IMG/VR virus record: IMGVR_UViG_3300027987_000382 | Coordinates: 82,840-146,839 of that record | Origin: a virus | DNA: 64,000 nucleotides | Direction: 5' to 3' (one strand) | Shown here: positions 43,362-62,595 of the stretch, piece after piece | Layout: every line of letters begins with the position of its first letter | How positions within the stretch are numbered: the stretch's first letter is position 1 | Program-made: the position numbers and the translations under genes | Notes under the pieces: generated by a model | The model's input: only the letters and a program-made list of their open reading frames with translations | What the model was told of the DNA's origin: nothing | The model's database searches: none

Positions 43362-43362
43362 C

Positions 43363-46418: not shown

Positions 46419-46566
46419 CGAAGAAGGAGCAAAAGTCTACCGCAACGGAGTGCTAATCAAATCGGGGCCACTCCACCAAATCCGAGACTGGCTGGACCAC
46501 AAGGACAACGCCAAACACTTCAAACGACGCCGTCGCAATTGGCTCTGTCGCTTGCTTCACCTGTAA
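46396..46566 (+). CDS. Small basic protein
   Basis: 56-aa ORF. Confidence 0.4.
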   Translation: MNTKVIIDEEGAKVYRNGVLIKSGPLHQIRDWLDHKDNAKHFKRRRRNWLCRLLHL

Positions 46567-46575
46567 AAATAGGGT

Positions 46576-47010
46576 ATGAAGCTACGACGAATCGCTGAAT
46601 CCGATTACGAAGGGCTCGAAGACGCCGACGAATTCGTGAACATCCACGAGATATACGATGTTCCCGAGCCCCTGGTCGATTTTATCCACGCGGGCTCCGT
46701 CTCCGGCGACCTCACTCCCGTCACAAATCCCGAACAGTCCTACTTAGAGGACATTAAAGGATTCGGTCGGTACGTCTTCCCCATCCAAACCGAGTACCGC
46801 GAGGATGTCGATAATCTCTTCCAAAATATCGACACCGATTGGGCGAGCGAATTTCAATGGGAATTGCGAGCTGCCATTATCAACGCTGTGCTCGCGAAAG
46901 CCGGTCTTGACGTTGACATGGATTGCGACTGGCGTATGATGCTGCGAGTCATCCAATCCGGCTTTGATAAGAGCGATCCACTCGTTTGGGTCGAGTTCCG
47001 CTTTCGCTAG
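46576..47010 (+). CDS. Acidic hypothetical protein
   Basis: 144 aa; starts MKLRRI. Confidence 0.6.
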   Translation: MKLRRIAESDYEGLEDADEFVNIHEIYDVPEPLVDFIHAGSVSGDLTPVTNPEQSYLEDIKGFGRYVFPIQTEYREDVDNLFQNIDTDWASEFQWELRAAIINAVLAKAGLDVDMDCDWRMMLRVIQSGFDKSDPLVWVEFRFR

Positions 47011-47170
47011 AAAGTACGCGACTCCCCTGGATTACTTCTGAATTTCCCATACGCAACGCATCCACCGTTGCTTATGTGTCGGGACTTTTTTGAATATAGT
47101 CCCGAGATCCCCGATTCAAAAAGTCCGAAGTGTTTTCGTATACCCATCCCGGACTCCGGACTCGACGGGT

Positions 47171-47690
47171 CTGAACCCATGGGGCACCAAAGCACGACAA
47201 TCCGAGCCTAACCCTGCCGCAAAGAGCCCCTAGAGCACCTAACCACAACAAGCACTTCCCGGCGAAACCGCACCTTGCCGCAAAAAGCCCATCGAGCACC
47301 TAACCAACCCACACGGAACCATACCGCACCACGACTAGCAATACCTGAAAAGACCCATCGAGTCCCGAACCCCACCGTCACGTTCCACACCGGAGTTGAC
47401 CATACCCCAGCTAACCGAACCGAGCCGACCCAGAACTAACCAATCCCGTCCGGACTCGACCCTGAAAACCCATAGGGCACCGAAACTTGCCGACACTTGC
47501 AATAGCTTACAATGCAGTGCAAAACACTGGCGTACCGAGACTAACCTCGAGAAAGCCCATAGGGCACCAAAACTCAACCGGACGAGCGAATCCTGGCCGA
47601 ACACAGCCTGGCCGGTAAAAAGCCCATCGGGCTCCCTGCCGTCACTCGACTGGCTCCAACCTAGCCCCTCCGAACCGGACCGACCCCGCC
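47171..47690 (-). ncRNA. Pentamer/hairpin array 1: 7 units of (GGN-NN)n plus 4-bp hairpin
   Basis: Cores at 47176, 47227, 47288, 47354, 47469, 47556, 47623; in-register 5-nt tracts between them. Confidence 0.75.
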
Positions 47691-48065
47691 TGGAGAATCA
47701 AGCCCCTGCAACACACCAGGAGCAAACTGCATCGGATCCCTCACCAAACCCAATACGTGATCAAGAAAATCCGGATCCCCCACCTCAAAGAAATGCGGCC
47801 TCAAATCCAACTCACAACCGCCCTTCCCATTCTCCTGAACCCCAGAAATAATCGCCACAAAATCCCCACCCATAAACTGCAACCGAATCGTCACCGGAAA
47901 CTTATACCGCCGCACCACCTCCAACGCACCCTGATTATGAAACGACGGACATGTCACACTGAACCCATGTGACTTCAACAGACCAGCCACCCCATCCAGG
48001 ATAGCCACCTGCTCCAACCCCAAATCCTCATCCCACCTAGGAAACTTCAGACCCGGTCCCTTCAT
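47661..48065 (-). CDS. Small protein, DP-motif family
   Basis: AILDGVAGLL ... FEVGDPDFLDHV. Confidence 0.6.
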   Translation of the reverse strand: MKGPGLKFPRWDEDLGLEQVAILDGVAGLLKSHGFSVTCPSFHNQGALEVVRRYKFPVTIRLQFMGGDFVAIISGVQENGKGGCELDLRPHFFEVGDPDFLDHVLGLVRDPMQFAPGVLQGLDSPGGVGPVRRG

Positions 48066-48435
48066 CCAAAAACTCCTCCCTCATAGCCTCAGGCACCGCC
48101 AAAAACTCCAGAATCTTCTCAAACGAATCAGGATCAGCAGGATCAACATACAAATGCCCATGCTCCCGTCCCGACGTCGAATTCCGCTCAACCCACACAT
48201 TCCCATTCTCAACATCATGCTGAATCACAGCACCCACATTAAACGTCACACACTCCATCAAGTACCCATCCGGATACAACACCTCCACCGCAGGCCCATG
48301 ATTCACCTCCCGATCCGGCACCCAACGCCCACTAAAATAATCACCATCCCTATGCTCCATGAGCTTATCCGTATACTGCACAATCGGCAGATGAGGCTGC
48401 AAATACTCAGCCACAGCCTTCAAAATAATACTCAT
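48037..48435 (-). CDS. Small protein, DP-motif family
   Basis: MSIILKAVAEYL ... VDPADPDSFEKI. Confidence 0.65.
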   Translation of the reverse strand: MSIILKAVAEYLQPHLPIVQYTDKLMEHRDGDYFSGRWVPDREVNHGPAVEVLYPDGYLMECVTFNVGAVIQHDVENGNVWVERNSTSGREHGHLYVDPADPDSFEKILEFLAVPEAMREEFLDEGTGSEVS

Positions 48436-48680
48436 GACAACAACCACTTCAACAACTTCGGCAGAACAAAACCAACCACCGCACCCAACACCATGAAGAA
48501 AATCAACCGCCGAGCCGCACGATGATTCACCCGATCCACAATATGTTCCATCGTCCTCGCCAACTCCTCCCGCGAAATCTCCTGCGTCACCAACAAATAC
48601 TCCAACTGCACATCCGACACCTCCCCATTCAGGCACCGAATCGCCAATCGAACCACCTCAGGCCGAAATTTCTTGTCCAT
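48432..48680 (-). CDS. Small membrane protein
   Basis: C-terminal TM; ATG lies inside an array hairpin. Confidence 0.55.
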   Translation of the reverse strand: MDKKFRPEVVRLAIRCLNGEVSDVQLEYLLVTQEISREELARTMEHIVDRVNHRAARRLIFFMVLGAVVGFVLPKLLKWLLS

Positions 48681-48808
48681 AGAACACCGAGCGATAACTT
48701 ACCATACCGACCACACTCCAGCCGGACCCCACAGGCCCATAGAGCACCTGACCGTTCCTAACAAAACCTTACCGCTCCCGTCCTTGCCCCACCTGAGCCC
48801 ACCTTGCC
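48675..48808 (-). ncRNA. Pentamer/hairpin array 2: 2 units
   Basis: Cores 48676 and 48736; 12 in-register pentamers 48749-48808 and about 8 at 48689-48728. Confidence 0.75.
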
Positions 48809-48814
48809 TTTGAC

Positions 48815-49117
48815 TCACTTATTCCTCTTACTCATCACAAACTCATACACCGCCTGCAACGACCCAGGATCACACATATCAAACGACCGATCCCCAACCT
48901 GCACATTATCAGGCAACCGATCCCCACCACGACCAACATCACCCGGATCATACTCACTCACCTCACACGTCACCTCCGTCACACCAGTAAAAGCAATCAC
49001 AATCCGCTTCCGACGACGCGGCACATCAATATACGACCCATACAACGTCGCCTGAACCACCCCACGCTCCATGAGATACTCATGAATACACTTCAACAAA
49101 ATCGAATCCTTAGCCAT
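48815..49117 (-). CDS. Small protein, DP-motif family
   Basis: ILLKCIHEYL ... FDMCDPGSLQAV. Confidence 0.65.
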   Translation of the reverse strand: MAKDSILLKCIHEYLMERGVVQATLYGSYIDVPRRRKRIVIAFTGVTEVTCEVSEYDPGDVGRGGDRLPDNVQVGDRSFDMCDPGSLQAVYEFVMSKRNK

Positions 49118-49593
49118 CACAACCACCGCAACGTCAAAACCTTACGACGAACCAACTCCAACGCATCCGGAACCGCCAAATCCACCACATCACACTCCGT
49201 ATCAATCGTCTGAGCATACGGATTCGGATAACGCCCCCGACAAATCTCACACCTGCACACATTCGCCGCCACACCATAATCAAAACTCGAATTCGCCGCA
49301 TGAGCCACCTGCTCAAAATCCTTCGTGCGAAAATGACGAACCACCGCCCTAGGCACATCGTCCAACTGCACATACACCTCCACATACCGCCTCGGCCGCA
49401 TACAACTCACCCAACCAGCATCATCCTTCACCGACAACGGCACATCCCCCTCCACCGCCAAAGACGACCACCCAAAATGCAACACTGAATGAAGACGAAA
49501 CCGCTCATCCGCCTCCCACAGAAAATCATGAATCCCCAAAGCAACCTCTTGCTCGAGGTTGGCCGGAGCCCTCACCTGCCCGATCCTACTCAT
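49117..49593 (-). CDS. Small protein, DP-motif family
   Basis: VALGIHDFL ... VDLAVPDALELV. Confidence 0.6.
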   Translation of the reverse strand: MSRIGQVRAPANLEQEVALGIHDFLWEADERFRLHSVLHFGWSSLAVEGDVPLSVKDDAGWVSCMRPRRYVEVYVQLDDVPRAVVRHFRTKDFEQVAHAANSSFDYGVAANVCRCEICRGRYPNPYAQTIDTECDVVDLAVPDALELVRRKVLTLRWL

Positions 49594-49883
49594 AAGCCCA
49601 AACTCCGATATAACGTATCTGGAAAATCCGGGTCCGCGTAGGGAAACGAATTAGTACAGATATCAATGATGTAAAGACTACACTTATCGGCATAGAACAA
49701 AATCTGCCGATTAAGAGACTGGACTTTGAGCCGGGGATCATCAACCGGCTCCGCCCATTCGATCGTAGCGTAGAGCTGATTCGGTGCATAGACCGACGCT
49801 GGAAGAAAACAACGGACCCCGTGGTACCTCCGCTCAAGGCGGGCAACAACTTCCTTGGCTAGATCATCAATCCACGTTTCCAT
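49590..49883 (-). CDS. Small protein, DP-motif family
   Basis: FPYADPDFPDTL. Confidence 0.6.
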   Translation of the reverse strand: METWIDDLAKEVVARLERRYHGVRCFLPASVYAPNQLYATIEWAEPVDDPRLKVQSLNRQILFYADKCSLYIIDICTNSFPYADPDFPDTLYRSLGL

Positions 49884-50064
49884 GTTTGTGAAATACCTGG
49901 GTCTCGCATGCGGGAATGTGTGTCGAAATCCTAGTACGGAGGACCCCCGGAGGACCCAGGAATAATTCCTCTATAGGGTCCCACACGCGGAAAATATTTC
50001 TTCCGCCAGAGAGCAACCCGACCAGTACCCCGGTATATTCCATCCCCCCTCACCAATACTTAGG

Positions 50065-50132
50065 TGTTGCAAGGGGAATCCCCCCGTTAAATCCGGGTGG
50101 CGGATTTAACGAAACCCCCGCGACCGGCAACA
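50065..50132. promoter_or_regulatory. Divergent promoter motif pair on an inverted repeat
   Basis: Minus copy 50065-50090; plus copy 50106-50132; GTTAAATCCG-N5-CGGATTTAAC. Confidence 0.65.
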
Positions 50133-50163
50133 CCGCCGGTCGCGGGGGGACTCGCAGGTGCGA

Positions 50164-50436
50164 CTAGTCGTCGCTGTCGTCGGCGTCCCCGCCCTTCGCG
50201 GCCTTCTTGGCGGCGATCTCGGCGGCGATCGTGTCCTGTGCGGTCTTCAGGTGCGTCGCGGCGGTCTCCGCGTCGACGCCGGACGCGTCCTGCACGAGCT
50301 TGCTGGCGGAGCGGCGGAGCTGCATGCCGACCAGCGTGCGGGCTTCGTCCTCGGTGTTGGCCATCACGGTGTCGGCGGCGGTCTGCGTCGCACGGACGAT
50401 GGCGGCGAGAAGGGCGGCGAGTTGCTTCTTGTTCAT
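50164..50436 (-). CDS. Small helical protein, MNKKQLA paralog 1
   Basis: AGGAG RBS; promoter 50497-50522. Confidence 0.75.
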   Translation of the reverse strand: MNKKQLAALLAAIVRATQTAADTVMANTEDEARTLVGMQLRRSASKLVQDASGVDAETAATHLKTAQDTIAAEIAAKKAAKGGDADDSDD

Positions 50437-50496
50437 GTCGTGTCTCCTGCGAGAGTTGGGGTTTCGGGGGGCGGCTGTCGCCCCCTCACAATCGGG

Positions 50497-50659
50497 TGTT
50501 GCCGGACGTGTCACCGCGTTAATTCCGGACGCTGCGTCGGTCGCGGCCTGCGTCGGGGTGTTCCGAGTGAGACCAACGAGGGCGGCGACTAGGAGGAGCG
50601 TCGGGAGTGTGGCGGAGTTCGGCATACGGCGGTGTTACGAAAGGGGGCGGCTGGGTTAA
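50497..50659 (-). promoter_or_regulatory. Two promoter motif copies
   Basis: 50497-50522 and 50633-50659. Confidence 0.65.
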
Positions 50660-50747
50660 ACGTCGCCCCCGCGACTCCCAGCCGCCCCCGCAGGAGAACA
50701 AGGAACACGCACGCGTTTGCGGGGGCGACCGCGTGCGTTAAATGCGG

Positions 50748-51503
50748 TCAGGACCAGCGGTCGGCGTCGGTCGCACCGACGAGGTAGTCGGGGTTCTCGG
50801 AGAGAACCTCACGCGTCCGAGCCGCGTTCGGGTAGTCCACGCCGTAGTTGTCGGCACAGGTCTTGCCGCAACCGGCGATCTTCGATTGGACCTGCTCCAG
50901 CTTCGCGTTGCAGTAGCAGCAGTGGCCGGACTGACGCCCGATCTCGGAGATTACGCGGGCTGGGTCGGCTGCAACACGCTGCAGAATCTCGACGACCGAG
51001 GTCCCCGCGACGGACGATCGCGGCTCGAACACGTCCCCGCCGATGTAGCCGTAGAACGCACCTTCGCCGAATCGGGTGGATTGGCTGACGCCGACCGTTC
51101 CCGGTCGCTTGCCGCCTGTGTTGAGCTTGAGAACGACCGTCTGTTCGTTCGGCTCGTCACCGACCGTGAGGACGATCACGGGACGCTTGAGCGTCTGCGT
51201 GGCCGTCTGCATGTGCAGCAGGATCGACTGCATGCCGGGCACGTTCGTGCACGCGTCGCGATTTCCTGCTTGGAAACGCTCTGGGTGGTCCACCTTGGCG
51301 ACGTAGAACGCGGCCCAACTCTCGTGGTACGGCTTCCACGAGCCGTAACGCTGGAAGCCAGCGACCAAGCGTGTGGGGTGGTCGCCCACGATTTCCTGCT
51401 TGGAAATGAGGGCACGCAGGCGGTCGTACAACGCCCGCTGGTTTGGGTGATTGCTCTCGAACGTGCACTCGCCGTGTCGCGAGTTGATGGTGAATTGTGG
51501 CAT
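50748..51503 (-). CDS. DUF6011-like Zn-finger protein
   Basis: GRQSGHCCYCNAKL....S...G.G..CA. Confidence 0.8.
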   Translation of the reverse strand: MPQFTINSRHGECTFESNHPNQRALYDRLRALISKQEIVGDHPTRLVAGFQRYGSWKPYHESWAAFYVAKVDHPERFQAGNRDACTNVPGMQSILLHMQTATQTLKRPVIVLTVGDEPNEQTVVLKLNTGGKRPGTVGVSQSTRFGEGAFYGYIGGDVFEPRSSVAGTSVVEILQRVAADPARVISEIGRQSGHCCYCNAKLEQVQSKIAGCGKTCADNYGVDYPNAARTREVLSENPDYLVGATDADRWS

Positions 51504-51574
51504 CCTCGTACTCCTGCGATTTCCTGCCGGGAAAGGGGGGTGAATGGGATTCGGGGGAATCCCGCCTAGGTCCC

Positions 51575-51600
51575 TGTTGCGAGGGGAATCCCCCCGTTAA
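51575..51600 (-). promoter_or_regulatory. Promoter motif copy
   Basis: 25/26 identical to 50065-50090. Confidence 0.7.
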
Positions 51601-51812
51601 TCGAGCCAGCCGAATCTGCTGTCGAACATGAAGACGCCGATGGTGACGCTCTGCTCGTCCGACTTGACGTCGAGTTCGTCGACGGTCTCATTCGGTCCGG
51701 GGTTTCCGTCCTCGTCGGTGCTGGTAACAGCGTCTTTGCTGCACTGGATGGAGAGGGTGACCGGCAGGTCCGGTCCGGCGAGCAGCTGTCGTGCGAGATC
51801 GTGTGCTTTCAT
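51597..51812 (-). CDS. Small hypothetical protein
   Basis: MKAHDLARQLLAGPDLPV. Confidence 0.6.
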   Translation of the reverse strand: MKAHDLARQLLAGPDLPVTLSIQCSKDAVTSTDEDGNPGPNETVDELDVKSDEQSVTIGVFMFDSRFGWLD

Positions 51813-51899
51813 GGTGACCGTGTGTTGCAAAAGAGAGGAGCGGAGAAAATGAAGCCCCTCCCCGCCCCTTGCGGGGCGGTTCGGGGCGTTCGGGTGCGA

Positions 51900-52166
51900 C
51901 TAGCTCTCGTCGCTGTCGTCGCCGCTCTCGTCGGTCTTCGCGGCTTTCGCCTTGACCGGCGGCTCCTCGATGATGACGTCCTCGACCTCGACGCCCGCTG
52001 CGTCGGCGATCAGGCCCTTGTGTGCCCGGCGGAGTCGCAAGGCGAGCAGGGTGCGGGCCTCGTCCTCGGTGATGGGCGGCTCGCTGTCGGTCGCGTTGCC
52101 GTTGATCGTGGCGGCGACCGAGAGCACCATGGTCTGGACGAGGAAGGCGAGCTGCTTCTTGTTCAT
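51900..52166 (-). CDS. Small helical protein, MNKKQLA paralog 2
   Basis: GGAG RBS; promoter 52228-52253. Confidence 0.75.
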   Translation of the reverse strand: MNKKQLAFLVQTMVLSVAATINGNATDSEPPITEDEARTLLALRLRRAHKGLIADAAGVEVEDVIIEEPPVKAKAAKTDESGDDSDES

Positions 52167-52291
52167 GTCGTGTTCTCCCGAACGAGTCGTGTGGGGCGTG
52201 GCGGAAGTCGCCTCCCCGATACCCACCTGTTGCCGACCGACAGACGGCGTAAAATCCGGGGGATTCAGACCGGCAGGAGAGCCGAGACGCG

Positions 52292-52663
52292 TCAAGACGC
52301 GTCGGAATTGACCGGGGTTCGCCACTTGGCAACAGCTGTTTTGCGGGTCGGCGGCTCGTCACCGAGCATCGCGACAACCTCGCCGACCAGTTGATCCCGG
52401 TTGTTCAGCCCGATGGAGAAGTGAAGATGGGCGATCTGCTTCACACCCGGCTTGATTTCACGAGTGACGGCGACGTGCAACACCTCGCTGTTGTGAGGGC
52501 GATCGAGCATCGCGGCGGTCTCTGACGCGTCCACCTCGAGCATCGGGTGGTTCGGACTCAGGACGAGTTCCAGGGTGTCCGGCACGGTTTGCTCGTTCCA
52601 CTTGGGCGTGGTGCGGGCGACCGGATCGCTGATTCGGGCTTTGCGGTACAGTGAGAGTTTCAT
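52292..52663 (-). CDS. Hypothetical protein
   Basis: 123 aa from ATG 52663. Confidence 0.55.
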   Translation of the reverse strand: MKLSLYRKARISDPVARTTPKWNEQTVPDTLELVLSPNHPMLEVDASETAAMLDRPHNSEVLHVAVTREIKPGVKQIAHLHFSIGLNNRDQLVGEVVAMLGDEPPTRKTAVAKWRTPVNSDAS

Positions 52664-52691
52664 GGTCCCTGGTCCTGTGCTGAGTGTTCCT

Positions 52692-52733
52692 AAGAAAAGC
52701 GGCCCGCCCTCAGCCGTTGCGAGAGCGGGCCGC
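52692..52733 (-). terminator. Intrinsic terminator
   Basis: GCGGCCCGC/GCGGGCCGC stem followed by T tract on minus strand. Confidence 0.6.
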
Positions 52734-53272
52734 GTGTGCCCGTTCGTCCGGGGCGTCACTCCCGGCTTAACGACGCGTCGAGCTAGCCGTACCCAGAATG
52801 CTTCTGCAGGACGATGCCTACCGGACCGGCGAGCTTCACGAGCCGCGTCCGTAATCTGGGCGATCCCGCTCTTTGCCACGGAAGCTGTCGGGACGGGCAG
52901 CCCGTCCAGCCGACGTAGGCGGCGATCGCGATGATGAGAATGAGTCCGTACACGTCTGCGATTTCCTCACTGGAAAGCGTGGGATGGTGAATGGCGGGGC
53001 ATCACCGCCGACTGGCTTGGGTCGTGTTCGATGCCGCCAGCTAGCGTGTGTCGCGGCGGGACGCCCCGCATGCTCGTGTGTGGCCTAACGCTTCATCGTG
53101 TGTCCTCCAATGCGTGTGACTCGCGATTTCCTCACTGGAAAGCGGGGCGACCAATGGCGATCGTGGCTTGTGTTACCCTCGGCCACCAGCCGCCCCTTGC
53201 CCCCATATGTTGCGAGCCGGGGTGGGCGGTTAAATCCGACCGCCCATGCCCCCGATTTCCGCACAGGAAACC

Positions 53273-53644
53273 CTAGAAGGGTACCTCGTCGTCCCACAGG
53301 ACGCCACCGGAGCAGAGCGTGTCGCCGTCCTCGTCGACGAGGATCGTCCCGGCCGTCTCGTCGTCGTGGTGCCGCTCACTGACGATCCGGCAGAGCGTCT
53401 CATCTTCCGGCTGGCACCAGTCCGGATCGAACGCGTCCTCGAACAACTCTGGATCGAGGGGAGCCAGCTCGTCGGGGAAGGCGGACGCCATTTCGCGTCC
53501 GAACGCGTCGTAGCAGTGTTCGTGCATCAGTGATCCCCCATAGTTGACCGTTTTACCGGTCGCGGGCTTGTCGCAATAGGGGCAGTCGGGAGTCACTGTC
53601 TCCGGTCTGCCGTTTTCGTCCGTCCTTGTCGCAAGTGCTGTCAT
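53273..53644 (-). CDS. Acidic Zn-binding hypothetical protein
   Basis: CPYC...H..C, ends DEVPF; promoter 53695-53721. Confidence 0.6.
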   Translation of the reverse strand: MTALATRTDENGRPETVTPDCPYCDKPATGKTVNYGGSLMHEHCYDAFGREMASAFPDELAPLDPELFEDAFDPDWCQPEDETLCRIVSERHHDDETAGTILVDEDGDTLCSGGVLWDDEVPF

Positions 53645-53747
53645 GCCGAAAGTCTCCTGTGCCGTGTTGGCGGGGCCAATTCCCCGCATAGTCTTGTTAC
53701 GGCAATCCCCCACCCCGTTAAACACGGAGCGGGGGATTCCTAAGACA

Positions 53748-53777
53748 GTGCCGGGCACCCTTGCGGGTGCCCGGCAT
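53748..53777. terminator. Strong hairpin after the 53790 gene
   Basis: TGCCGGGCACCC-TTGC-GGGTGCCCGGCA. Confidence 0.6.
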
Positions 53778-53789
53778 CGGCTGCTGCGA

Positions 53790-55022
53790 CTAGCCGCTGT
53801 AGTCACTTCCGGTCATGTTCGCCTTGACCTTCGCGTCGATGTGGAAGTCGGCGAAGTCCTCGAACTTCTCCCGCGTCCCTTCCATGTCGTACTCGGCCGA
53901 GATGAGCGTCCCGACCCACGCGTTCAGCATGCGAGCCGACGTCGGCTCCGAGTAGTGGGTGGCGACCTCGGTCGCGAAGTTGATGGCATCGTAGACCGTG
54001 CACCGGACCGGGAGCGTCCGCTGACGCTTGATGCTGAGAGCATCGAGGTTCGCCAGTCCGTACAGGTGGTTGGTGTCGCCGGTCATCCGGTGGAACGCGG
54101 AGACGATCGGGGAGCCGATCCCCGCCGACTCGTCGTCCAAGTCGGTCTGCGAGACGCCCGCATTCCGGGAATCCTGCAGCCACTCGGTGATGCGGTTGCC
54201 GCGAGCCAGCTGCTTGTCGACGCCGATCAGCCCCTTGTTGTTGTGGAGCTTGATGATCAGCTTGTACAGCTGCGTGGACTCGTTGACGCTGCACCACGAC
54301 TCGGTGGCCGACTCCATTCGCTGCCGGAGAGCCGCGAAGCCCTCGTCGTTGCCGAATCCGTCGAGGGCACGCGTGATCGTCGGCATCACGTCGTCCGCAC
54401 CCTTCCCCAGATTCAGGGACGAGCGGAACGCCTTGGCGTAGCCGATCATGCCGTTCGCACAGATTTGGCGGAGCAGCGAGAGGTAGAAGTTCGGCGTGCC
54501 GTAACCGTCGATCGGCGTGGCCATGACGAACCGGTTCGAGAACGTGTCACCGCAAATGTCGAAGTTCGCGGCTCCGACTCGCGGGGCGTGCGTCGAGTAG
54601 ACCTCGCCGTTGGCGTAGTCGATCGACTGGCCGTTGTACCGATCGAGCGACTCCATCAACTCGTCGTGCTGCACGATCGGCTTGGTGGGATTGCTGACGG
54701 CCATCAGCGTGCTCGTCAGCTTGCCGTTCTCGTCGGTCCGCCGCTCGATGCAGAGCCGCATCCGGTCGGCCTGCTCCACGTTCGAAATCCGCTCGAACGT
54801 CTCGGCGTGGGTGAAGTACTTGAAGAACGCCTTGTTGAACCCGTAGCGGGCGAACAGGGACGTCCAGAAGCGATCGGACGGCTCGAGCGGCTCATCCTTC
54901 ACGATGACGCTCTTCACGATCGGCCGACCGCTCTTCGGATCGCTCTCCGACTCCACGACCAGATCGTTGATCGGCAGGAAGTCGTAGTCGAACCGGACGG
55001 AACTGGGTGTCGCAGCAACCAT
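53790..55022 (-). CDS. DUF932-like protein
   Basis: LLRQICANGM; TVYDAINFATE..TH; promoter 55083-55108. Confidence 0.7.
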   Translation of the reverse strand: MVAATPSSVRFDYDFLPINDLVVESESDPKSGRPIVKSVIVKDEPLEPSDRFWTSLFARYGFNKAFFKYFTHAETFERISNVEQADRMRLCIERRTDENGKLTSTLMAVSNPTKPIVQHDELMESLDRYNGQSIDYANGEVYSTHAPRVGAANFDICGDTFSNRFVMATPIDGYGTPNFYLSLLRQICANGMIGYAKAFRSSLNLGKGADDVMPTITRALDGFGNDEGFAALRQRMESATESWCSVNESTQLYKLIIKLHNNKGLIGVDKQLARGNRITEWLQDSRNAGVSQTDLDDESAGIGSPIVSAFHRMTGDTNHLYGLANLDALSIKRQRTLPVRCTVYDAINFATEVATHYSEPTSARMLNAWVGTLISAEYDMEGTREKFEDFADFHIDAKVKANMTGSDYSG

Positions 55023-55132
55023 GTCTCGTATCTCCAAAAAAGTGGGTGGAAGTGTCACCGGGGCCAATCCCCGATACTCCCCTGTTGCCAGTCCGCAGAC
55101 CGGGTAAAATCCGGGGGATTGGTCGCTGGAGA

Positions 55133-55198
55133 CCCTCCCCCATACCCTCTCCTATCTTCAAATACGTCGAGATCGACGAGAGAGGGTATGGGGGAGGG
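55133..55198. repeat. Perfect 19-bp inverted repeat with nested hairpin
   Basis: CCCTCCCCCATACCCTCTC / GAGAGGGTATGGGGGAGGG. Confidence 0.9.
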
Positions 55199-55247
55199 GC
55201 GAGCCGCCGAATTCGACAGTGACGGCTCGCCCCCAGCACAGGAAGCT

Positions 55248-56468
55248 CTAGAACCGGACGCGTCGCGGACGACCCGCCTTCGCACGATCAGTGACGAATT
55301 TCGGCATCGTCACTTCCGTCGTCGCAATGGCGACTCTCGCCCGATTGTTGATCTCCTGCAGATGCGGATTCACGGTCAACGACCGCCACTCGTCATTCTG
55401 CCAGAGATACTGCTGCTCCGGCATCGCAGTCCGAATCATCGGCCACTTCGTCGCCTTCGACTGGACCACCTGCTTGAACGGCAGAGTCGGGAACTGTCGG
55501 AACACCCGACCGGCCATCTGCATCGTCGGACCCTTGCTGGAATCCCGGACCCACACCGTCTTGAGGCTAGGATCATCGAAACCCTCGGTCAGCACCATGC
55601 AGTTGATCAGCTTGTCCGTCTCACCATTGAGATAAGCCGCCAGCTGCCGCTCCCGGTCACTGTCACCATCCACAATCGGATCGAACGTAGCCATCGCGAT
55701 CGAATCCCGATCACGGCAAGCCCGCTGATACCGCTCGAAATAGCCGCGACGGATCAAAGCATCCCGCAGCAACTGGCACTCATCCTTCGTGAGGAAGTAG
55801 AAGATCGAGCGTCCCCACTTCTCCGGATCGGAGCAGTAGAAATCCGCGACCGTCTCCGCATTCCACTTCGGCAGCGAATAGTGGTGATAACGGGACAGGT
55901 AGCCGTCCTGAATCAGCTGGTGAATCCCCGCATCCTTCACGACGCGATCGAAGCACAGCTTCACCCGGTCTTGGCGGAAGGGAGTCGCGGTGAGTCCGAG
56001 GATCAGATTCGGCTCGATGATGTTGTGCAGGTGAGCCATCGAGTTCGCAGCGTCGTGCTGAGCCTCATCGACGACCATCAGAATCGGCTTGCCGTCCTGA
56101 CGGGCTTGGACGAGATTCTCGGGATTCTTCTCGAACATCGACGTGAACTGGATGCCCGGAATCTTGATGCCGAGCGTATCGTTGGCACGAGCCGCCTGAC
56201 GGAGCAGATCGCGTCGCATCGCGACCCAACCGATCGTCAAATCCGGCATCTGGCTCTTGAGAAGAGCACACGTGACGAAGCCCATCACCGTCTTTCCGCT
56301 GCCGGTGGGACTCTCGATCATCACCGAACGGCACGCCTCAAGCACGGTGCCGTCCCCCTGCATGTACTCGCCACGAAACATGTCGTTGACTTTCGTGCAG
56401 ATCGTTGTCTGGTATGGTCGCGGTTCGATCTTCGTCCCCGCGATCACTGCTGAGATTCGCTTGCTCAT
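55248..56468 (-). CDS. SF2 DExH helicase (ResIII/UvsW-like)
   Basis: RPYQ, SPTGSGKT, VDEAQH, GLTATP.R, LTEGFD.P, QMAGRV.R; promoter 56525-56550. Confidence 0.93.
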   Translation of the reverse strand: MSKRISAVIAGTKIEPRPYQTTICTKVNDMFRGEYMQGDGTVLEACRSVMIESPTGSGKTVMGFVTCALLKSQMPDLTIGWVAMRRDLLRQAARANDTLGIKIPGIQFTSMFEKNPENLVQARQDGKPILMVVDEAQHDAANSMAHLHNIIEPNLILGLTATPFRQDRVKLCFDRVVKDAGIHQLIQDGYLSRYHHYSLPKWNAETVADFYCSDPEKWGRSIFYFLTKDECQLLRDALIRRGYFERYQRACRDRDSIAMATFDPIVDGDSDRERQLAAYLNGETDKLINCMVLTEGFDDPSLKTVWVRDSSKGPTMQMAGRVFRQFPTLPFKQVVQSKATKWPMIRTAMPEQQYLWQNDEWRSLTVNPHLQEINNRARVAIATTEVTMPKFVTDRAKAGRPRRVRF

Positions 56469-56613
56469 GATAACTCCTGTGCTGTCGAGATTTGTCCGAG
56501 GGGCTGTCGTCCCCTACACTCTCCTGTTACGAGCAGCGAATCCGGGTTAATGCTGACCCTCAAATACGCCGCAGGCCGAAGGGGATTCCCAGAATCCCCT
56601 CCGACCGTTAACG

Positions 56614-58104
56614 TCACTTCCACGCCCAATTGAAATCCTTCCGGTGATCCATCACCTTCGCAAACAGATCGGTCAGCTTCCCGGCGTACGCCTCATCGTG
56701 GACATCAAATCCCAGACCGTGAGCGAACTCGTGAACCGCCACCGACAGGATTCGATTCCGCTCGGTCAGCTGGAATCGCCGCTTCCACGACCGGCTGTTC
56801 GAATTCTGCTGCTCCACCAGACTCGCCGGAGCGATCAAATAGGTCCGCCCAAACCGTCCATCCTCGAACTGAGCTTCATCCTCTTCCGAGAACAGGAAGC
56901 CAATCGCGAAATCCGCGTCGTGGTCGAACGTTCGGTGCAGCTGCAGCATCACCCGTCCCCAAATCCGGGCCAGCTTCTGGCTGTAGCTGGAGAAGTCCGG
57001 CTCGTCCGGCCGATAGTAGGTGGGAATCACCAGATCGGTTTCGTTCTTGATCACGAATTCCTCGCTCACCGCAACCCGAACCTCCTCGACGGGAGCCATC
57101 GGAGCGTAGGCTGCCGCCTTCTGTCGCGGACGATCCACGTGTTCCTCGTGGTACTCGGTGGTACCGGTCTGTTCCTCGTGGTCCTCGACCAGATCGATCA
57201 GGACCGACTCGTCCTCGACCGGCTCCGGCTTCTCAATCTGGAGGATTGCCGACGTCTTGACCTCTCGAGCCGAGCGATGGCAGAGCCGCGAGCCGTCATA
57301 GTGGCGGTAACGCTCCTGACGGGGCTTGAGAGCCGATCGCTTGTCGACGGACAACTCGGTGACGAATGTGTCCAATTCCTGCCGCTTCGACCACTTCAAG
57401 CCGTCCCGGTTCGACTGGAGGCATTCCAGGGAGTCTTCGCTCAACTCGACCACGACGCATCGGTCCAACCCGCAGTCGCGGATGAACATCGGCTGTCCGT
57501 TGATCCGGACGACCATCTTGTACTTGGTCGACTTGTTGGTGTAGACGGTGCCGAATCCGAGATCGCGTCGCGGCGATCCCTTCCGCATGTCCGCCTTGTG
57601 GGATTCGCCGTTCCAGTAGAATGTCCCGGACCATTGGCCGTAGAGGACGAACTGGTCGAAAGCCCGCTTGAGAGCCACTTCGTGCTCGCCGTCAATGACG
57701 ATTGTGGACGACGTCCCGCGAGTGTAGCCGTTGTCGACGAGATCGTAGTCGCCGCCGCGTCCCTTGACGCACAGCTCGCCGGAGTGAATCTCATAGGATT
57801 CGTGGCAGAAGTAGAGGATCTCTTTGGCTTTGCCGAATCCGCCGGTGTTCCCTTCCCGCTCGTCCTTGCCGGACGATCCGAGGGAGAGCAGCTTGCCGAT
57901 CAGGACCTCTTCGGTCATTGGCGAGCCGTCATTGGTGACGGTGACGATCGTCTGGCCGTTCTCGATGGCGACGGTCCATTGGATGGTGCGTGAGTCGCAG
58001 TCCATGCCGTTCTGGTTGAACTCGCGGACGATCGCCCAATGCCAGTCGTTGTAGTCGTTCTTGGCTTTGGCGAAGAATTCGGGGCCGATGCTGATTTGCG
58101 GCAT
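56614..58104 (-). CDS. GHKL (HATPase_c) ATPase with C-terminal HExxH motif
   Basis: REFNQNGMD, NDG.PM, GGFG.AK, GT; VHEFAH...H; promoter 58159-58185. Confidence 0.8.
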   Translation of the reverse strand: MPQISIGPEFFAKAKNDYNDWHWAIVREFNQNGMDCDSRTIQWTVAIENGQTIVTVTNDGSPMTEEVLIGKLLSLGSSGKDEREGNTGGFGKAKEILYFCHESYEIHSGELCVKGRGGDYDLVDNGYTRGTSSTIVIDGEHEVALKRAFDQFVLYGQWSGTFYWNGESHKADMRKGSPRRDLGFGTVYTNKSTKYKMVVRINGQPMFIRDCGLDRCVVVELSEDSLECLQSNRDGLKWSKRQELDTFVTELSVDKRSALKPRQERYRHYDGSRLCHRSAREVKTSAILQIEKPEPVEDESVLIDLVEDHEEQTGTTEYHEEHVDRPRQKAAAYAPMAPVEEVRVAVSEEFVIKNETDLVIPTYYRPDEPDFSSYSQKLARIWGRVMLQLHRTFDHDADFAIGFLFSEEDEAQFEDGRFGRTYLIAPASLVEQQNSNSRSWKRRFQLTERNRILSVAVHEFAHGLGFDVHDEAYAGKLTDLFAKVMDHRKDFNWAWK

Positions 58105-58262
58105 GTTGGGCGTCCTGTGCTGGAGGAAAGAATGGGGCTGTCGTCCCCGATACTCTCCTGTTGCGAATCCCCCTTAGCCGGTAAATCTGGGGTACCTGAT
58201 ACGCGAACGGCCCGCCAGATTTCTCTGACGGGCCGTCGCTGTTCGCACTGGTCTGCGGCGAA

Positions 58263-58934
58263 TCAGACCTTCACGTACTGCACGCAACCGGAGCCGATCG
58301 CCTCGCAGACTTGCCGCATCTTCCCGGCGTTCTTCCCGGCGATCAGGGCGAGCCGCTGGAGCACTCCCGGACGGTAGGACCGCTTCACTTCCGCGTCGAG
58401 CAGAGCGTCGGCCTCTTCGTCGTTGATGGTGCCGGTCTCGGTCAACTCAGCCATCGCGGCTTCGATGTGCTTGCCGAGAATGTCCATCACGCCGTCCTTC
58501 GACAGAACGGAGCGGTCGAAACCGAAGACCGTCTCTTCGTAGACCAGCTCGTTCGCACCGTCCTCGCCGAGCAGCTGCGTGAGAGCAGCCAGCGAGTCGT
58601 CTTTCACGCCGTATTGGTTTCGCTCCTGAACCACGAAGGTGACGTTCTCACCCTCGCTGTTCTGGACCTTCATCGGCGTCTCCGGGAACACGCCGCTGTC
58701 GGCGTACTGCTGGTAGAACGAGTCCTTCGCGAAGTTGAGAACGACCGTCTTGTGGACGCCCATCTTGGCGTTGATCGCCTTCACCTGAGCGTTCAACTCG
58801 GTCAACTCGTGCACGGACTTCGCCACCTTGTCGGCATCCGGATTACCGACCGCCCACAACGTCTGCTTCTTCGCGGGTTTCGTCGACGCCGACTTCTCCG
58901 CCTTCTTCGCCGCAGCTTTCGCAAACACGCTCAT
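58263..58934 (-). CDS. Hypothetical protein
   Basis: GGAGG RBS; promoter 58999-59024. Confidence 0.75.
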   Translation of the reverse strand: MSVFAKAAAKKAEKSASTKPAKKQTLWAVGNPDADKVAKSVHELTELNAQVKAINAKMGVHKTVVLNFAKDSFYQQYADSGVFPETPMKVQNSEGENVTFVVQERNQYGVKDDSLAALTQLLGEDGANELVYEETVFGFDRSVLSKDGVMDILGKHIEAAMAELTETGTINDEEADALLDAEVKRSYRPGVLQRLALIAGKNAGKMRQVCEAIGSGCVQYVKV

Positions 58935-59099
58935 GAGAGCACCTCCAAAAGGGAACATAGCTGTCGCTCGCGGCTCACACCGAGCCGCTTCCCCCGCGTG
59001 TTGCGAGACCGGACCTGCCGTAAAATCCGGGGTACCGACCGGCTGCCGCGACCATCCGGGAAAGACGAACGCGTGCGATTGCCGTACCGGGAACCCCCG

Positions 59100-59402
59100 T
59101 TAAATCGGCTCGTCCCAATCCCTCACAGGACCGGTGGTTGGCTTGGTTGCCGCTTCACACTCTGAAATACGGCACGCCATCACCCCTGATTCCTTCCGGA
59201 CGGTATTCCCACTCCCCTGCTCCAGAGCCACAACAAGATCACCCACAGTCCTACAACCGGGGTTCGCCTCCTTGAGCTTCTCGAGCACCTCATCATCATC
59301 GTAGAAATCGTCCATGTCCGCCTGAATGCTCACCACCTGCTCACCGCGTCTCACACGGATTTCAGGATGGTACGCAACAACCTTGCGACCTAGCTTTTCC
59401 AT
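59100..59402 (-). CDS. Hypothetical protein
   Basis: GGAG RBS. Confidence 0.55.
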   Translation of the reverse strand: MEKLGRKVVAYHPEIRVRRGEQVVSIQADMDDFYDDDEVLEKLKEANPGCRTVGDLVVALEQGSGNTVRKESGVMACRISECEAATKPTTGPVRDWDEPI

Positions 59403-59428
59403 TTACCAGACTCCCATATCCTGCAACA
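59402..59428 (+). promoter_or_regulatory. Promoter motif copy
   Basis: TTTAC-N16-GCAACA. Confidence 0.6.
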
Positions 59429-59470
59429 AAAAGGAGGAATCCCCATTCACGTATTTGAGGAACTGACAAC

Positions 59471-60175
59471 ATGCAACTGAAAGTCGAAAGCACCCGGTAC
59501 ATCTTTCCGCCACGGCCACAATCCGCGATGCCGTTCAACGACGTCGTATTCTTCACGGAAGTAGGCTGGGGCTGGCAGTACAAAGTCAACGACAGCCGAT
59601 GCGAGATCAAGTATCTACCAGATGGCAGCGTCGAACTCTGGAACCGACACGCCGAACGATTCCGATCCTACCACTGCCCAGACTGGCTCGAAGACCAACT
59701 CCTCGCAGTCCGCGACCAACTCGGTCTCAGCAGTTCCGAGTACCACCTGCTCGACGGCGGACTCTACGACCAGAAACACGCCGCGATCAAAGACACCATC
59801 GTGATCTGGGACATTCTGGTGCGAGACGGAATGCACCTGCTCGGCACCACCTACAAAGAACGATTCGACAGCATCGCCACCGGCACCACACCCTACAACT
59901 TCAGCCACGAAACCTACGAACACCCCATCCAATTCGGACTCTGCTACGAGGACACCCCCAACGTCTTCCACCTTGAATGGAACCCCTGCGGCGACCCACG
60001 CTCTTGTTGGGACATGGTACACGTCATCAACAAGCCATTCGACGCCAACAGCCCGCTGATCGAAGGAATGGTCTTCAAAGACCCAGACGGACGCCTCGAA
60101 ATGGGCATGAGCGAAAAGAACAACGAAAGTTGGCTCTGCCGGACCAGAGTCAAGACCGGACGTCACCCATTCTAA
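59471..60175 (+). CDS. ATP-dependent ligase/capping-type nucleotidyltransferase, adenylation domain only
   Basis: QYKVNDSR (I), LLDGGL (III), IWDIL (IIIa), EGMVFK (IV). Confidence 0.75.
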   Translation: MQLKVESTRYIFPPRPQSAMPFNDVVFFTEVGWGWQYKVNDSRCEIKYLPDGSVELWNRHAERFRSYHCPDWLEDQLLAVRDQLGLSSSEYHLLDGGLYDQKHAAIKDTIVIWDILVRDGMHLLGTTYKERFDSIATGTTPYNFSHETYEHPIQFGLCYEDTPNVFHLEWNPCGDPRSCWDMVHVINKPFDANSPLIEGMVFKDPDGRLEMGMSEKNNESWLCRTRVKTGRHPF

Positions 60176-60229
60176 CGGAGAACCTCACCACAACCGGGGA
60201 ACAATCCCCAAACCGAACAGGAGGACAAC

Positions 60230-60760
60230 ATGTCCCACACCGCAGAAACAGCCCGCAAAACCGCCAAGAAATCCTGGGCACGGGCAAACCGCCTCGCCGA
60301 ACTCACCGGCCACGAAAAATCCGCCGACTGCCGCACCTACCTCGCGAGCCTGAACGGCACGAGCAATAAGGAGATCCTCGACACCAGCAAAGACGCTCGG
60401 ACCCGAGACATCCGAGAACTCATGGAAGGATTCACCACCTGGTACGAAGGCGGCGGCAGGTCCCTCCACGCCGGAGGCAAAGGCCAAACCCGCCGGAGCA
60501 AGGGCGACACATCCCGCCCACCCAGAGCCGGAGCACCAAATCCCCGTAACGGAACCGCCAAGCGACAATCCAGGGGACATGCCCACATCACCGCCGAGCC
60601 AATCTACCAGCTTCGCAAAATCCAGAAGCAACACGACCTCAGCATCGAAGACCTCGCCCACTGCGTCGAAGTCCTAGGACGCATCGTAGAAAGCCCCCTC
60701 AACGTCGACCAATTCCTCCGAGACGTCAAAGCGGACCGCAAAGCCTCCGCCTCCATCTAA
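60230..60760 (+). CDS. Basic hypothetical protein
   Basis: AGGAGG RBS. Confidence 0.7.
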   Translation: MSHTAETARKTAKKSWARANRLAELTGHEKSADCRTYLASLNGTSNKEILDTSKDARTRDIRELMEGFTTWYEGGGRSLHAGGKGQTRRSKGDTSRPPRAGAPNPRNGTAKRQSRGHAHITAEPIYQLRKIQKQHDLSIEDLAHCVEVLGRIVESPLNVDQFLRDVKADRKASASI

Positions 60761-60780
60761 GACGTCCTCATTTCGGCAGA

Positions 60781-60815
60781 GACGCCCACGGTCGCCAATG
60801 GTGCCCGTGGGCGTT
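60781..60815. terminator. Hairpin between the 60230 gene and array 3
   Basis: GACGCCCACGG-N13-CCGTGGGCGTT. Confidence 0.55.
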
Positions 60816-60825
60816 CTCATAGGTG

Positions 60826-61168
60826 CGATTTCCTCTCAGGAAAGCCCATCGGGCACCAAACCCAACCTAACCACACCTAAACGAACCCTCCGAACCTGTC
60901 CACGTACAACGCGGACCCCTGCGATTTCCTCACAGGAAACCCAGGCCCATCGGACCCCCTACCGAACCGCCCGGAACTGGACTCACCGGACTACGCTCTA
61001 GCCGGAACGATCCCTACCGCTCAAACGCGTACTCGTACGCACAGGACCACGGGCAAACGGGCAGCCGCGATTTCCTCCCAGGAAACCCGTAAGGTCCCAA
61101 TACCGACCGAGGCTTCACTTGACACACCCTGGCGAACCTGTAAACGCCCACGATTTCCTCGGAGGAAA
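60826..61168 (-). ncRNA. Pentamer/hairpin array 3: 3 units bounded by 4 CGATTTCC-N5-GGAAA motifs
   Basis: Cores 60845, 60946, 61086; motifs 60826, 60922, 61068, 61151. Confidence 0.75.
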
Positions 61169-61182
61169 CCACAATACGCTCC

Positions 61183-61208
61183 TGTTGCCAAAAGGCCCCA
61201 CGAGTTAA
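61183..61208 (-). promoter_or_regulatory. Promoter motif pointing into array 3
   Basis: TTAAC-N15-GCAACA-N5-GTAT on minus strand. Confidence 0.7.
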
Positions 61209-61377
61209 GTCCTAACGTGCGAAGAACATACCTCTCCGAGCTTCTCCTTTGGCTTCCCTTGGCCTCTCGCGTGCGGCGGCTCAAAGTCCGGGGGAGAGCT
61301 TTCGGCTTCACTCGGGGCAAAGGAGGTGTCTTTCTGTGGTTCTTTTTGGGTTTTGGTGCTGTTTGCACTGCGAGGAC

Positions 61378-62378: not shown

Positions 62379-62590
62379 GGTGCTCCTGCGGCGTAGATGA
62401 TTTTGAGGCATTGTTCGCAGATGCGGACTTGTTGGCGGTGTCCGCTGAGTTGCCAGATGGGTGTTTCTGGTGGGGCGTGGATGGTTTGGGTGCAGAAGTT
62501 GCAGCTGCCGTACTGGTCTTTTGTGCCTTTGGTGAAAGAAGTTTGGCCGAGGCTGTTGGTATTGCCGCATGTTGGTCGGTTTTGGGTCAT
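62375..62590 (-). CDS. Small Zn-finger protein
   Basis: GSCNFC...VRICEQC. Confidence 0.6.
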   Translation of the reverse strand: MTQNRPTCGNTNSLGQTSFTKGTKDQYGSCNFCTQTIHAPPETPIWQLSGHRQQVRICEQCLKIIYAAGAP

Positions 62591-62595
62591 TGTTT

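What the first reader, a model, noticed from the sequence alone, without database searches (positions are those of the whole stretch)
47176..61098. All 12 array hairpins keep pairing through compensatory and G-U changes, favouring the minus strand as RNA
Minus-strand stem-loop-stem: GCCC-CAT-GGGT, GCTC-TAG-GGGC, GCTC-GAT-GGGC, ACTC-GAT-GGGT, GCCC-TAT-GGGT, GCCC-TAT-GGGC, GCCC-GAT-GGGC, GTTC-TAT-GGAC, GCTC-TAT-GGGC, GCCC-GAT-GGGC, GTCC-GAT-GGGC, ACCT-TAC-GGGT. Every variant pairs 4/4 if G-U is allowed, there are true compensations (G-C to A-U, C-G to U-A), and the middle loop A is invariant. G-U pairs become A-C mismatches on the + strand, so selection appears to act on a minus-strand RNA. It may be a processing or capping handle (inference).
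Basis: seen in the sequence. Interest (0 to 1): 0.85.

Follow-up and report, generated by a model that had tools for sequence, protein, structure and literature searches.

The report
Tail hairpins of phage VIPR guide RNAs
The twelve small hairpins are real, base-paired RNA elements that most likely cap the 3' ends of guide RNAs of a VIPR system, a CRISPR-like phage system first described in 2026, so the feature is genuine but of a known kind.

Summary
Eleven hairpins match one loose pattern (0.9 expected by chance) and the twelfth was read directly. All lie on the minus strand. The contig is a large phage fragment (146.8 kb, 12 tRNAs, about 41% complete).

I found four related phage contigs through a neighbouring protein family. 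They carry 28 more copies. Across all 39 copies the 4-bp stem pairs in 156 of 156 cells, with nine double compensatory changes, and no shuffle out of 500 reached this. About half the copies hold a G-U pair, which would be a mismatch on the other strand.

Each hairpin ends a tract of five-base GG-Y-NN units. The tract keeps its phase with the hairpin that follows it. This is the published build of a VIPR guide RNA (vrRNA): 9-16 pentamers plus a conserved structured 3' tail. This scan has already met VIPR arrays on other DNA; those notes gave me the lead, and I checked it in the preprints.

Open points: no Vipr protein gene was found in about 155 kb, and no targets were found. The arrays here are more degenerate than canonical ones, and the tail is a minimal triloop hairpin, unlike the hairpin-plus-pseudoknot tail of phage SUSP1. 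Verdict: new member of a known kind.

The parts
47175..47185 (-). Tail hairpin 1, GCCC-CAT-GGGT. It is the last unit of array 1. It is orthologous to L040:2379, where A-U replaces the G-U pair.
47226..47236 (-). Tail hairpin 2, GCTC-TAG-GGGC
47287..47297 (-). Tail hairpin 3, GCTC-GAT-GGGC
47353..47363 (-). Tail hairpin 4, ACTC-GAT-GGGT (A-U compensation). It is preceded by the longest tract: 13 GG units among 17 pentamers.
47468..47478 (-). Tail hairpin 5, GCCC-TAT-GGGT
47555..47565 (-). Tail hairpin 6, GCCC-TAT-GGGC
47622..47632 (-). Tail hairpin 7, GCCC-GAT-GGGC
48675..48685 (-). Tail hairpin 8, GTTC-TAT-GGAC (U-A compensation). Its loop and 3' stem contain the ATG (48680) of the 82-aa membrane protein gene.
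48735..48745 (-). Tail hairpin 9, GCTC-TAT-GGGC. It is preceded by a tract with 10 GG units among 12 pentamers.
60844..60854 (-). Tail hairpin 10, GCCC-GAT-GGGC. The only strict run of at least 4 GGYNN units inside the arrays is 60853-60877, five units, the last of which (GGTGC) overlaps the first two stem bases.
60945..60955 (-). Tail hairpin 11, GTCC-GAT-GGGC
61084..61094 (-). Tail hairpin 12, ACCT-TAC-GGGT. It is the weakest copy: its closing pair is U-G and its pentamer tract is poor.
47171..47690 (-). Array 1: seven units, each a GG-Y-NN pentamer tract plus a tail hairpin. It lies in the gap between convergent genes, downstream of the minus-strand operon.
   Evidence: Period-5 power up to 5.0 against a genome mean of 0.21
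48675..48808 (-). Array 2: two units between the 100-aa gene and the 82-aa membrane protein gene.
60781..61208 (-). Array 3: three degenerate units behind a promoter-like motif (61183-61208). They are interleaved with TTTCC-N5-GGAAATCG hairpins, and the unit ends at an inverted repeat (60781-60815).
47661..49883 (-). Operon of five paralogous small acidic proteins and one 82-aa membrane protein, into which arrays 1 and 2 are set. The homologues of one member, P0001 (48037-48435), led to the related contigs.

Best explanation
The hairpins are the conserved, structured 3' tails (handles) of VIPR-type guide RNAs (vrRNAs) transcribed from the minus strand. Each unit reads as a short U-rich linker, then a tract of five-base GG-Y-NN repeats, then the 4-5 bp triloop hairpin GCYC-NAU-GGGC.

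In published VIPR systems one Vipr protomer (a small Cas7-like RAMP protein) binds each pentamer by its GGY. The NN bases are left free to pair with double-stranded DNA, with one base skipped per unit. [quoted passage not shown]

Shown here: the hairpin pairs and covaries; the pentamer code is present; the tract is phase-locked to the hairpin that follows it; the module is conserved in four related phage contigs. Inferred by analogy: that the element acts as RNA, that a Vipr protein binds it, that the hairpin caps or marks the 3' end, and that the guides silence a competing mobile element.
For: 1. Pairing. In 39 copies from five phage contigs the stem is paired in 156/156 cells. Pair types are GC 29, AU 4, GU 3, CG 2 and UG 1 at the outer pair; CG 35, UA 2 and UG 2 at the second; UG 17, CG 13 and UA 9 at the third. 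No shuffle out of 500 reaches the observed values. A fifth pair forms in 27/39 copies with six pair types.

2. Pentamer code. The period-5 signal occurs nowhere else in the 146.8-kb contig. Among GG units, position 3 is T 113, C 33, A 30 and G 11, so 78% pyrimidine. Positions 4 and 5 are near uniform.

3. Tail is 3' of the tract. The distance from the tract to the next stem is 3 mod 5 in most units, while hairpin-to-hairpin spacings vary mod 5. Arrays begin with a tract and end with a hairpin.

4. Published definition. vrRNAs are 9-16 YNNGG repeats followed by an invariable structured 3' tail. Internal degeneracy is frequent, and arrays may be tandem or staggered. The tail caps the 3' end in cryo-EM structures. 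The vrRNA region of phage SUSP1, read here, has the same build.

5. Variable guide, conserved handle. Between orthologous units of the window and L040, tracts are 49-71% identical and the core is 83-89% identical.

6. No Rfam family matches the region.
Against: No vipr gene was found. The tests were: SUSP1 Vipr against the six frames of the contig; an HMM of 120 type II Vipr homologues against all ORFs of the contig and of 8.4 kb beyond the window; Pfam RAMPs; phrog_4652; and hhalign against 14 neighbouring ORFs. The genes that the arrays flank encode acidic proteins with a frataxin-like fold, not RAMPs.

No target obeying the one-base-skip rule was found.

The arrays in the window are degenerate. 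Only one strict run of at least four GGYNN units lies in them, and 16% of GG units have A at position 3. Tract lengths vary widely.

There is no RNA evidence.
Confidence: 0.75

Rival explanations
1. The arrays are solo (orphan) vrRNAs. The phage has no vipr of its own, and its guides load onto the Vipr protein of a competing phage or satellite to redirect or disarm it. The hairpin is still the 3' tail.
For: No Vipr was detectable in about 155 kb. Relatives' contigs of 0.9-3.2 kb carry arrays but only small acidic protein genes. Solo vrRNAs on satellites and on 346 vipr-null phages are published.
Against: The contig is estimated to be only 41% complete, so vipr may lie in the unseen part. Vipr types other than type II may escape the profiles I used.
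Confidence: 0.2
2. The hairpin is a translational operator or RNA processing signal of the operon, read by an unknown non-Vipr protein. The pentamer tracts serve another function, or a different protein with a five-base footprint reads them.
For: The last hairpin of an array abuts or contains the start codon or Shine-Dalgarno sequence of the next gene: window 48675-48685, L038:460, L040:553, L040:2083 and L023:692. The 5' flank AGGUG followed by AUG looks like a ribosome binding site.
Against: Most copies (about 30 of 39) are not next to any gene start. Several lack a start codon at that place, with loops TAG, TAC or TGT. This reading does not explain the phase-locked GG-Y-NN tracts, which the VIPR model does.
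Confidence: 0.08
3. The hairpins with their U-runs are weak intrinsic terminators or attenuators stacked in tandem.
For: A GC-rich stem is followed by TTTT in most copies. Array 1 lies at the 3' end of the operon, in a gap between convergent genes.
Against: The stem has only 4-5 bp, and its folding energy is close to that of shuffled sequence: z is -0.1 to -1.0 for four of the five copies folded and -2.1 for the fifth. Arrays also sit upstream of genes that must be expressed. Terminators do not need a conserved loop or a 5-nt phase.
Confidence: 0.04
4. This is a DNA-level element: G-rich pentamers and hairpins on the displaced strand act in R-loop or G-quadruplex formation at a replication origin.
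For: The G/T-rich strand skew is independent of gene direction and reverses near 61.2 kb, next to array 3. GGNNN repeats could form two-tier quadruplexes (my own inference).
Against: Arrays 1 and 2 lie 12-14 kb from the skew switch. Hypervariable NN with conserved GGY, and a covarying tail in phase, are not expected of an origin. The VIPR build explains all of these features.
Confidence: 0.03

Closest known systems
VIPR systems (Vipr protein plus vrRNA); type II example from Escherichia phage phiSUSP1 (bioRxiv 10.64898/2026.04.26.720920, .720927 and 10.64898/2026.10.15.759431)
   Same: The system is carried by a phage. The guide is made of five-base units with conserved GG-pyrimidine and variable NN. 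Several units stand in tandem arrays. Each tract runs straight into a conserved structured 3' tail. Some pentamers are degenerate, as in SUSP1 itself.
   Different: The tail here is a minimal 4-5 bp triloop hairpin, whereas SUSP1 has a hairpin plus pseudoknot. No vipr or vap gene lies next to the arrays or anywhere in the 155 kb examined. The arrays are set inside an operon of small acidic proteins, and the last tail overlaps the next gene's start. GGA units are common (16%). No targets were found.
Solo or orphan vrRNAs of satellites and vipr-null phages (bioRxiv 10.64898/2026.10.15.759431)
   Same: vrRNA-like units occur without a detectable vipr gene on the same element.
   Different: The published cases are 1-2 vrRNAs left at a deleted vipr-vap1 locus, or carried on satellites, in Enterobacteriaceae phages. 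Here there are about 12 units in three arrays in an unrelated large environmental phage, and its genome is incomplete.
CRISPR RNA 3' repeat hairpins (for example type I-E and I-F handles bound by Cas6)
   Same: A short conserved hairpin marks the 3' end of each guide in a multi-guide transcript, next to a variable guide segment.
   Different: There are no CRISPR repeats or spacers, the period is 5 nt rather than 6, no cas genes were seen, and units differ in length.

Membership tests
VIPR system (vrRNA component) | Tandem five-base units with conserved GGY and hypervariable NN, at least 4 units and typically 9-16 | tested here: met
   The period-5 signal is unique to the three arrays. Position 3 is pyrimidine in 78% of 187 GG units, and positions 4 and 5 are near uniform. 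Tracts have 4-13 GG units in the window and up to 10 perfect units in L023. By a strict rule of consecutive GGYNN units, only one run of at least 4 lies in the window's arrays. The window's arrays therefore pass only under the conformity-threshold type of caller that the papers describe.
VIPR system (vrRNA component) | Invariable 3' tail with conserved secondary structure directly after the repeat tract | tested here: met
   A 14-nt core is conserved in five phage contigs. The stem is 100% paired with compensatory changes. The tract is in phase with the downstream hairpin. The structure differs from the SUSP1 hairpin plus pseudoknot.
VIPR system | A vipr gene (RAMP fold, about 20 kDa) on the same element, usually flanked by the vrRNA regions | tested here: inconclusive
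   Nothing matched SUSP1 Vipr, an HMM of 120 type II homologues, Pfam PF03787, phrog_4652 or hhalign. The contig is about 41% complete, other Vipr types may escape these profiles, and only one protein was folded.
VIPR system | An accessory vap gene with a DNA-interaction domain | tested here: inconclusive
   No homologue of SUSP1 vap1 was looked for beyond its PHROG assignment. A ResIII helicase (55248-56468) and a basic 176-aa protein (60230-60760) lie nearby. No link to the arrays was shown.
VIPR system | Natural targets that match the NN bases under the one-base-skip rule | tested here: inconclusive
   No match exceeded shuffled guides in the phage itself or in its relatives. Two guides gave no exact match in IMG/VR or in the GTDB species genomes. 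Only exact matches could be sought in the large collections.
VIPR system | vrRNAs expressed as discrete small RNAs that co-purify with Vipr | not testable with these tools
CRISPR array | Near-identical direct repeats of 23-50 nt separated by unique spacers of constant length | tested here: not met
   Tandem Repeats Finder gave nothing. Copies are degenerate and spacings run from 51 to 115 nt.

The most novel reading that the evidence does not exclude
This lineage of large environmental phages carries many vrRNA-like units with a minimal hairpin tail but no vipr of its own. The guides would then either hijack a competitor's Vipr, or be read by a protein unrelated to RAMPs. In addition, the tail that overlaps the next gene's start codon would couple guide loading or maturation to translation of the adjacent small acidic proteins, which may be inhibitors.
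Probability: 0.15. Interest if true: 0.7.

Novelty: new member of a known kind. Interest (0 to 1): 0.4.

Why it matters
VIPR was described only in 2026, and its diversity is still being mapped. This locus adds a clade, seen in five phage contigs, in which the guide's 3' handle is reduced to a 4-5 bp triloop hairpin. The 39 natural copies amount to a mutational scan of that handle. They show which positions must pair and which bases are fixed: the closing C-G pair, the purine in the middle of the loop, and the flanking GG.

The locus also shows arrays placed inside an operon of unrelated small proteins, with no vipr gene nearby. That bears on how far guides and effector can be separated, and on how common solo guides are outside enterobacterial phages. 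For annotation, the hairpin together with the five-base phase is a practical signature for calling the unit boundaries of such guides.

Tried and rejected
1. Collection scans for the motif. The exact motif gave 17 single chance hits in IMG/VR, none with a period-5 signal. The two-copy pattern gave nothing in IMG/VR. In JGI metagenomes it gave 12 loci that are unrelated tandem or coding repeats.

3. Before the VIPR lead I considered and dropped these readings, because none explains a 5-nt phase locked to a covarying hairpin: N4-type hairpin promoters, TRAP-like ring binding, Chi arrays, RNase E sites, ribosome-binding decoys, type III toxin-antitoxin RNA repeats, and anti-CRISPR repeat mimics.

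4. The P0001 family as the effector. The model has pLDDT 85.7. Foldseek against the PDB gave nothing at E <= 0.001. VIA-align gave a best Z of 7.0, with frataxin/CyaY, an immunity protein and PsiB-like folds, and no RAMP was listed. The proteins are strongly acidic, so I do not take them for the RNA-binding partner.

5. The Vipr hunt by sequence and a C-terminal glycine-loop motif screen found nothing. An ESM Atlas look-up of the 210-aa gene upstream of array 3 gave no usable hit.

6. The JGI record behind L025 could not be searched as a whole. 8.4 kb beyond the window end was reached through another protein; it holds no further array and no Vipr match.

7. Target searches led nowhere.

8. The second structure job and complex prediction were not used, because no candidate justified them.
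Full report
**Context.** The window is the last 64 kb of a single 146,839-base contig. The contig starts with a cluster of 12 tRNA genes. It encodes a split Pol III-like DNA polymerase, a DnaB-like helicase and another helicase, together with glycosyltransferases, a sulfatase and radical SAM enzymes. The tool describes it as an IMG/VR virus record with no end repeats, estimated 41% complete. It is therefore a fragment of a large phage.

**The observation.** A loose pattern for the + strand form of the hairpin gives 11 matches, all in one orientation, against 0.91 expected. The twelfth copy, at 61084-61094, was read directly. On the minus strand the copies share the core GGT-GCYC-NAT-GGGC, usually followed by TTT.

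A covariance model without any base pairs, built from the 11 copies, finds 29 matches in 152,650 bases (the window, 80 kb of the rest of the phage, and four related contigs). All are on the sense strand and none is in the other 80 kb of the phage.

**More copies from relatives.** The hairpins lie in and after a minus-strand operon of six small ORFan genes at 47661-49883. One of these proteins, P0001 (48037-48435), has a handful of homologues in the large protein collections. Their contigs are L023, L024, L038/L039 and L040. All of them carry the same hairpin on the sense strand, between and after the homologous genes.

To avoid choosing copies by their pairing, I listed every site that fits GG-N-NNNC-NRN-GNNN. 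This fixes only the closing pair, the flanking GG and the loop purine. In the part of the window outside 47-62 kb, 8 of 112 such sites pair 4/4. Every site that also has the rest of the consensus pairs 4/4.

The alignment of 39 copies gives the following.
- 156 of 156 stem cells are paired.
- Outer pair: GC 29, AU 4, GU 3, CG 2, UG 1.
- Second pair: CG 35, UA 2, UG 2.
- Third pair: UG 17, CG 13, UA 9.
- Nine cells are changed on both sides.
- No shuffle out of 500 reaches the observed pairing or covariation score, and sliding the partner by 1-3 columns drops pairing to 25-59%.

A fifth pair just outside the stem forms in 27 of 39 copies with six pair types. RNAalifold predicts this 5-bp stem without guidance.

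The consensus stem contains a U-G pair, and 23 cells are wobble pairs. The complementary strand could therefore not form the hairpin in about half of the copies. The stem alone is only marginally stable: for four of the five copies folded, the energy lies within about one standard deviation of shuffled sequence (z -0.1 to -1.0), and one consensus-like copy reaches z = -2.1. This suggests that a bound partner holds the hairpin.

**What the hairpin belongs to.** Spectral analysis shows a five-base periodicity on the minus strand that occurs nowhere else in the contig, with power up to 5.0 against a genome mean of 0.21. It sits at 47.19-47.46 kb, 48.65-48.76 kb and 60.80-60.86 kb.

Written in fives, the tracts read GGNNN and run in phase into the GGT that precedes each stem. 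Among 187 GG units from the five contigs, position 3 is T 113, C 33, A 30 and G 11. Positions 4 and 5 are close to uniform.

The distance from the end of a tract to the next stem is 3 mod 5 in most units, while the hairpin-to-hairpin spacings (51, 61, 66, 115, 87, 67) differ mod 5. Arrays start with a tract and end with a hairpin. The hairpin is therefore the 3' end of the unit, not the 5' end of the next one.

**The lead, and checking it.** I had no convincing mechanism for a five-base code until a word search of this scan's earlier notes returned several follow-ups on other genomes. Those notes assign GG-pentamer arrays to VIPR systems. I read the cited preprints.
- The first defines vrRNAs as 9-16 YNNGG repeats with conserved GGY and hypervariable NN, followed by an invariable 3' tail with conserved structure. 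The NN bases recognise double-stranded DNA with one skipped base per unit. It describes seven types, accessory vap genes, tandem, staggered and ribozyme-interspersed arrays, and frequent internal degeneracy.
- A later preprint describes solo vrRNAs on satellites and on vipr-null phages, and gives a formal caller (GG[C/T]NN, at least 4 units, conformity threshold).
- A fourth recovers VIPR arrays by their 5-nt period and reports non-canonical trinucleotides.

I fetched phage phiSUSP1 and confirmed the build in its sequence. Two intergenic regions with period 5 flank a 195-aa and a 146-aa gene. Pentamer tracts, some of them degenerate, run directly into a conserved tail. The units in my window have the same build with a simpler tail.

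**Variable guide, conserved handle.** Between orthologous units of the window and L040, the tract is 49-71% identical and the 18-nt core is 83-89% identical. In the clearest pair the GG positions are kept while the NN bases differ.

**What does not fit or is missing.**

*No vipr gene.* The following tests all gave nothing:
- SUSP1 Vipr against the six frames of the contig;
- an HMM built from 120 type II homologues against all ORFs of the contig and against the genes of an 8.4-kb extension beyond the window end, reached through another assembly of the same phage;
- Pfam RAMPs;
- the PHROG family of SUSP1 Vipr;
- hhalign against 14 neighbouring ORFs.

The genes that occupy the place of vipr between the arrays belong to an expanded family of small acidic proteins. 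The model of one member (pLDDT 85.7) is an alpha/beta sandwich most like frataxin, an immunity protein and PsiB. No RAMP was listed among its matches. Given 41% completeness, vipr may lie elsewhere, may be of a type my profiles miss, or may be absent (solo guides).

*No targets.* The two best guides have no match above shuffled controls in the phage itself or in the relatives. They have no exact gapped match in IMG/VR or in the species genomes.

*Degenerate arrays.* Under a strict rule only one run of at least four consecutive GGYNN units falls in the window's arrays, and GGA units are frequent.

*No RNA data.* None could be reached.

**Verdict.** The element is best read as the 3' tail of VIPR-type guide RNAs (confidence 0.75). 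About 0.2 of the remaining weight goes to the solo-guide variant, in which the hairpin has the same role, and little goes to operator, terminator or origin readings.

It is a new member of a kind described in 2026. It has a minimal tail and an unusual placement. The same kind of array has already been met by this scan on other DNA.

Noticed in passing
window 51259-61171 (for example 51517-51540, 52959-52982, 53124-53147, 60816-60846, 60912-60942, 61058-61088, 61141-61171): A second small hairpin, TTTCC-N5-GGAAATCG on the minus strand, occurs about ten times, always in one orientation. It sits just upstream of Shine-Dalgarno sequences in 5' leaders of the GC-rich block, and directly after each tail hairpin in array 3. 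It looks like a second protein-binding or processing site.
   Followed up: partly
window 50504, 51582, 52235, 55090, 58166, 59006, 61190 (minus strand): A promoter-like motif recurs 50-75 nt upstream of nearly every minus-strand gene of the 50-59 kb block (GC 0.59-0.65, against about 0.50 for the phage). It reads GGATTTTAC, then 15-16 nt, then GCAACAGG, then 4 nt, then TATCGGGGA. It also stands in front of array 3.
   Followed up: partly
window 41000-49600, 59400-61240, and 61240-64000; L042:8001-11000: There is a very strong strand skew that does not depend on gene direction. The + strand is C/A-rich up to about 61.2 kb (GC skew down to -0.40) and G/T-rich after it. The related contigs are also G/T-rich on the array strand. 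This may mark a replication origin or long single-stranded exposure.
   Followed up: no
window 47661-49883; L042:338-9689: The phage has an expanded family of small acidic proteins (85-158 aa). Each has an N-terminal helix and a C-terminal motif like D-L-x-D-P-x-S-(I/F)-x-x-hydrophobic. Five stand in the operon and several more in the 8.4 kb beyond the window. The predicted fold is a frataxin-like sandwich. They may be inhibitors or immunity-like proteins.
   Followed up: partly
window 48675-48685; L038:460-470; L040:553-563; L040:2083-2093; L023:692-702: The last tail hairpin of an array contains or abuts the start codon or Shine-Dalgarno sequence of the next gene. Guide maturation or protein binding could therefore affect that gene's translation.
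   Followed up: partly
window 55248-56468, 59471-60175, 60230-60760: Three genes stand out: a ResIII/SNF2-type helicase; a 234-aa protein with a faint ATP-dependent ligase match; and a basic 176-aa protein (net charge +11) convergent with array 3. None was linked to the arrays.
   Followed up: no
genome 36722-38968 (43.9-46.1 kb before the window start): Three tandem paralogues (273, 224 and 152 aa) share a QDETGW motif. First-stage notes place them beside a reverse transcriptase and three structured RNAs. hhalign shows no similarity to Vipr. This looks like a separate system.
   Followed up: partly
window 47486-47545 and L040:1960-2010: One unit is unusually conserved between the window and L040 (about 71% identity). 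It has several TG-NNN pentamers in place of GG-NNN. Non-canonical trinucleotides such as TGH are reported for some VIPR-like arrays.
   Followed up: no
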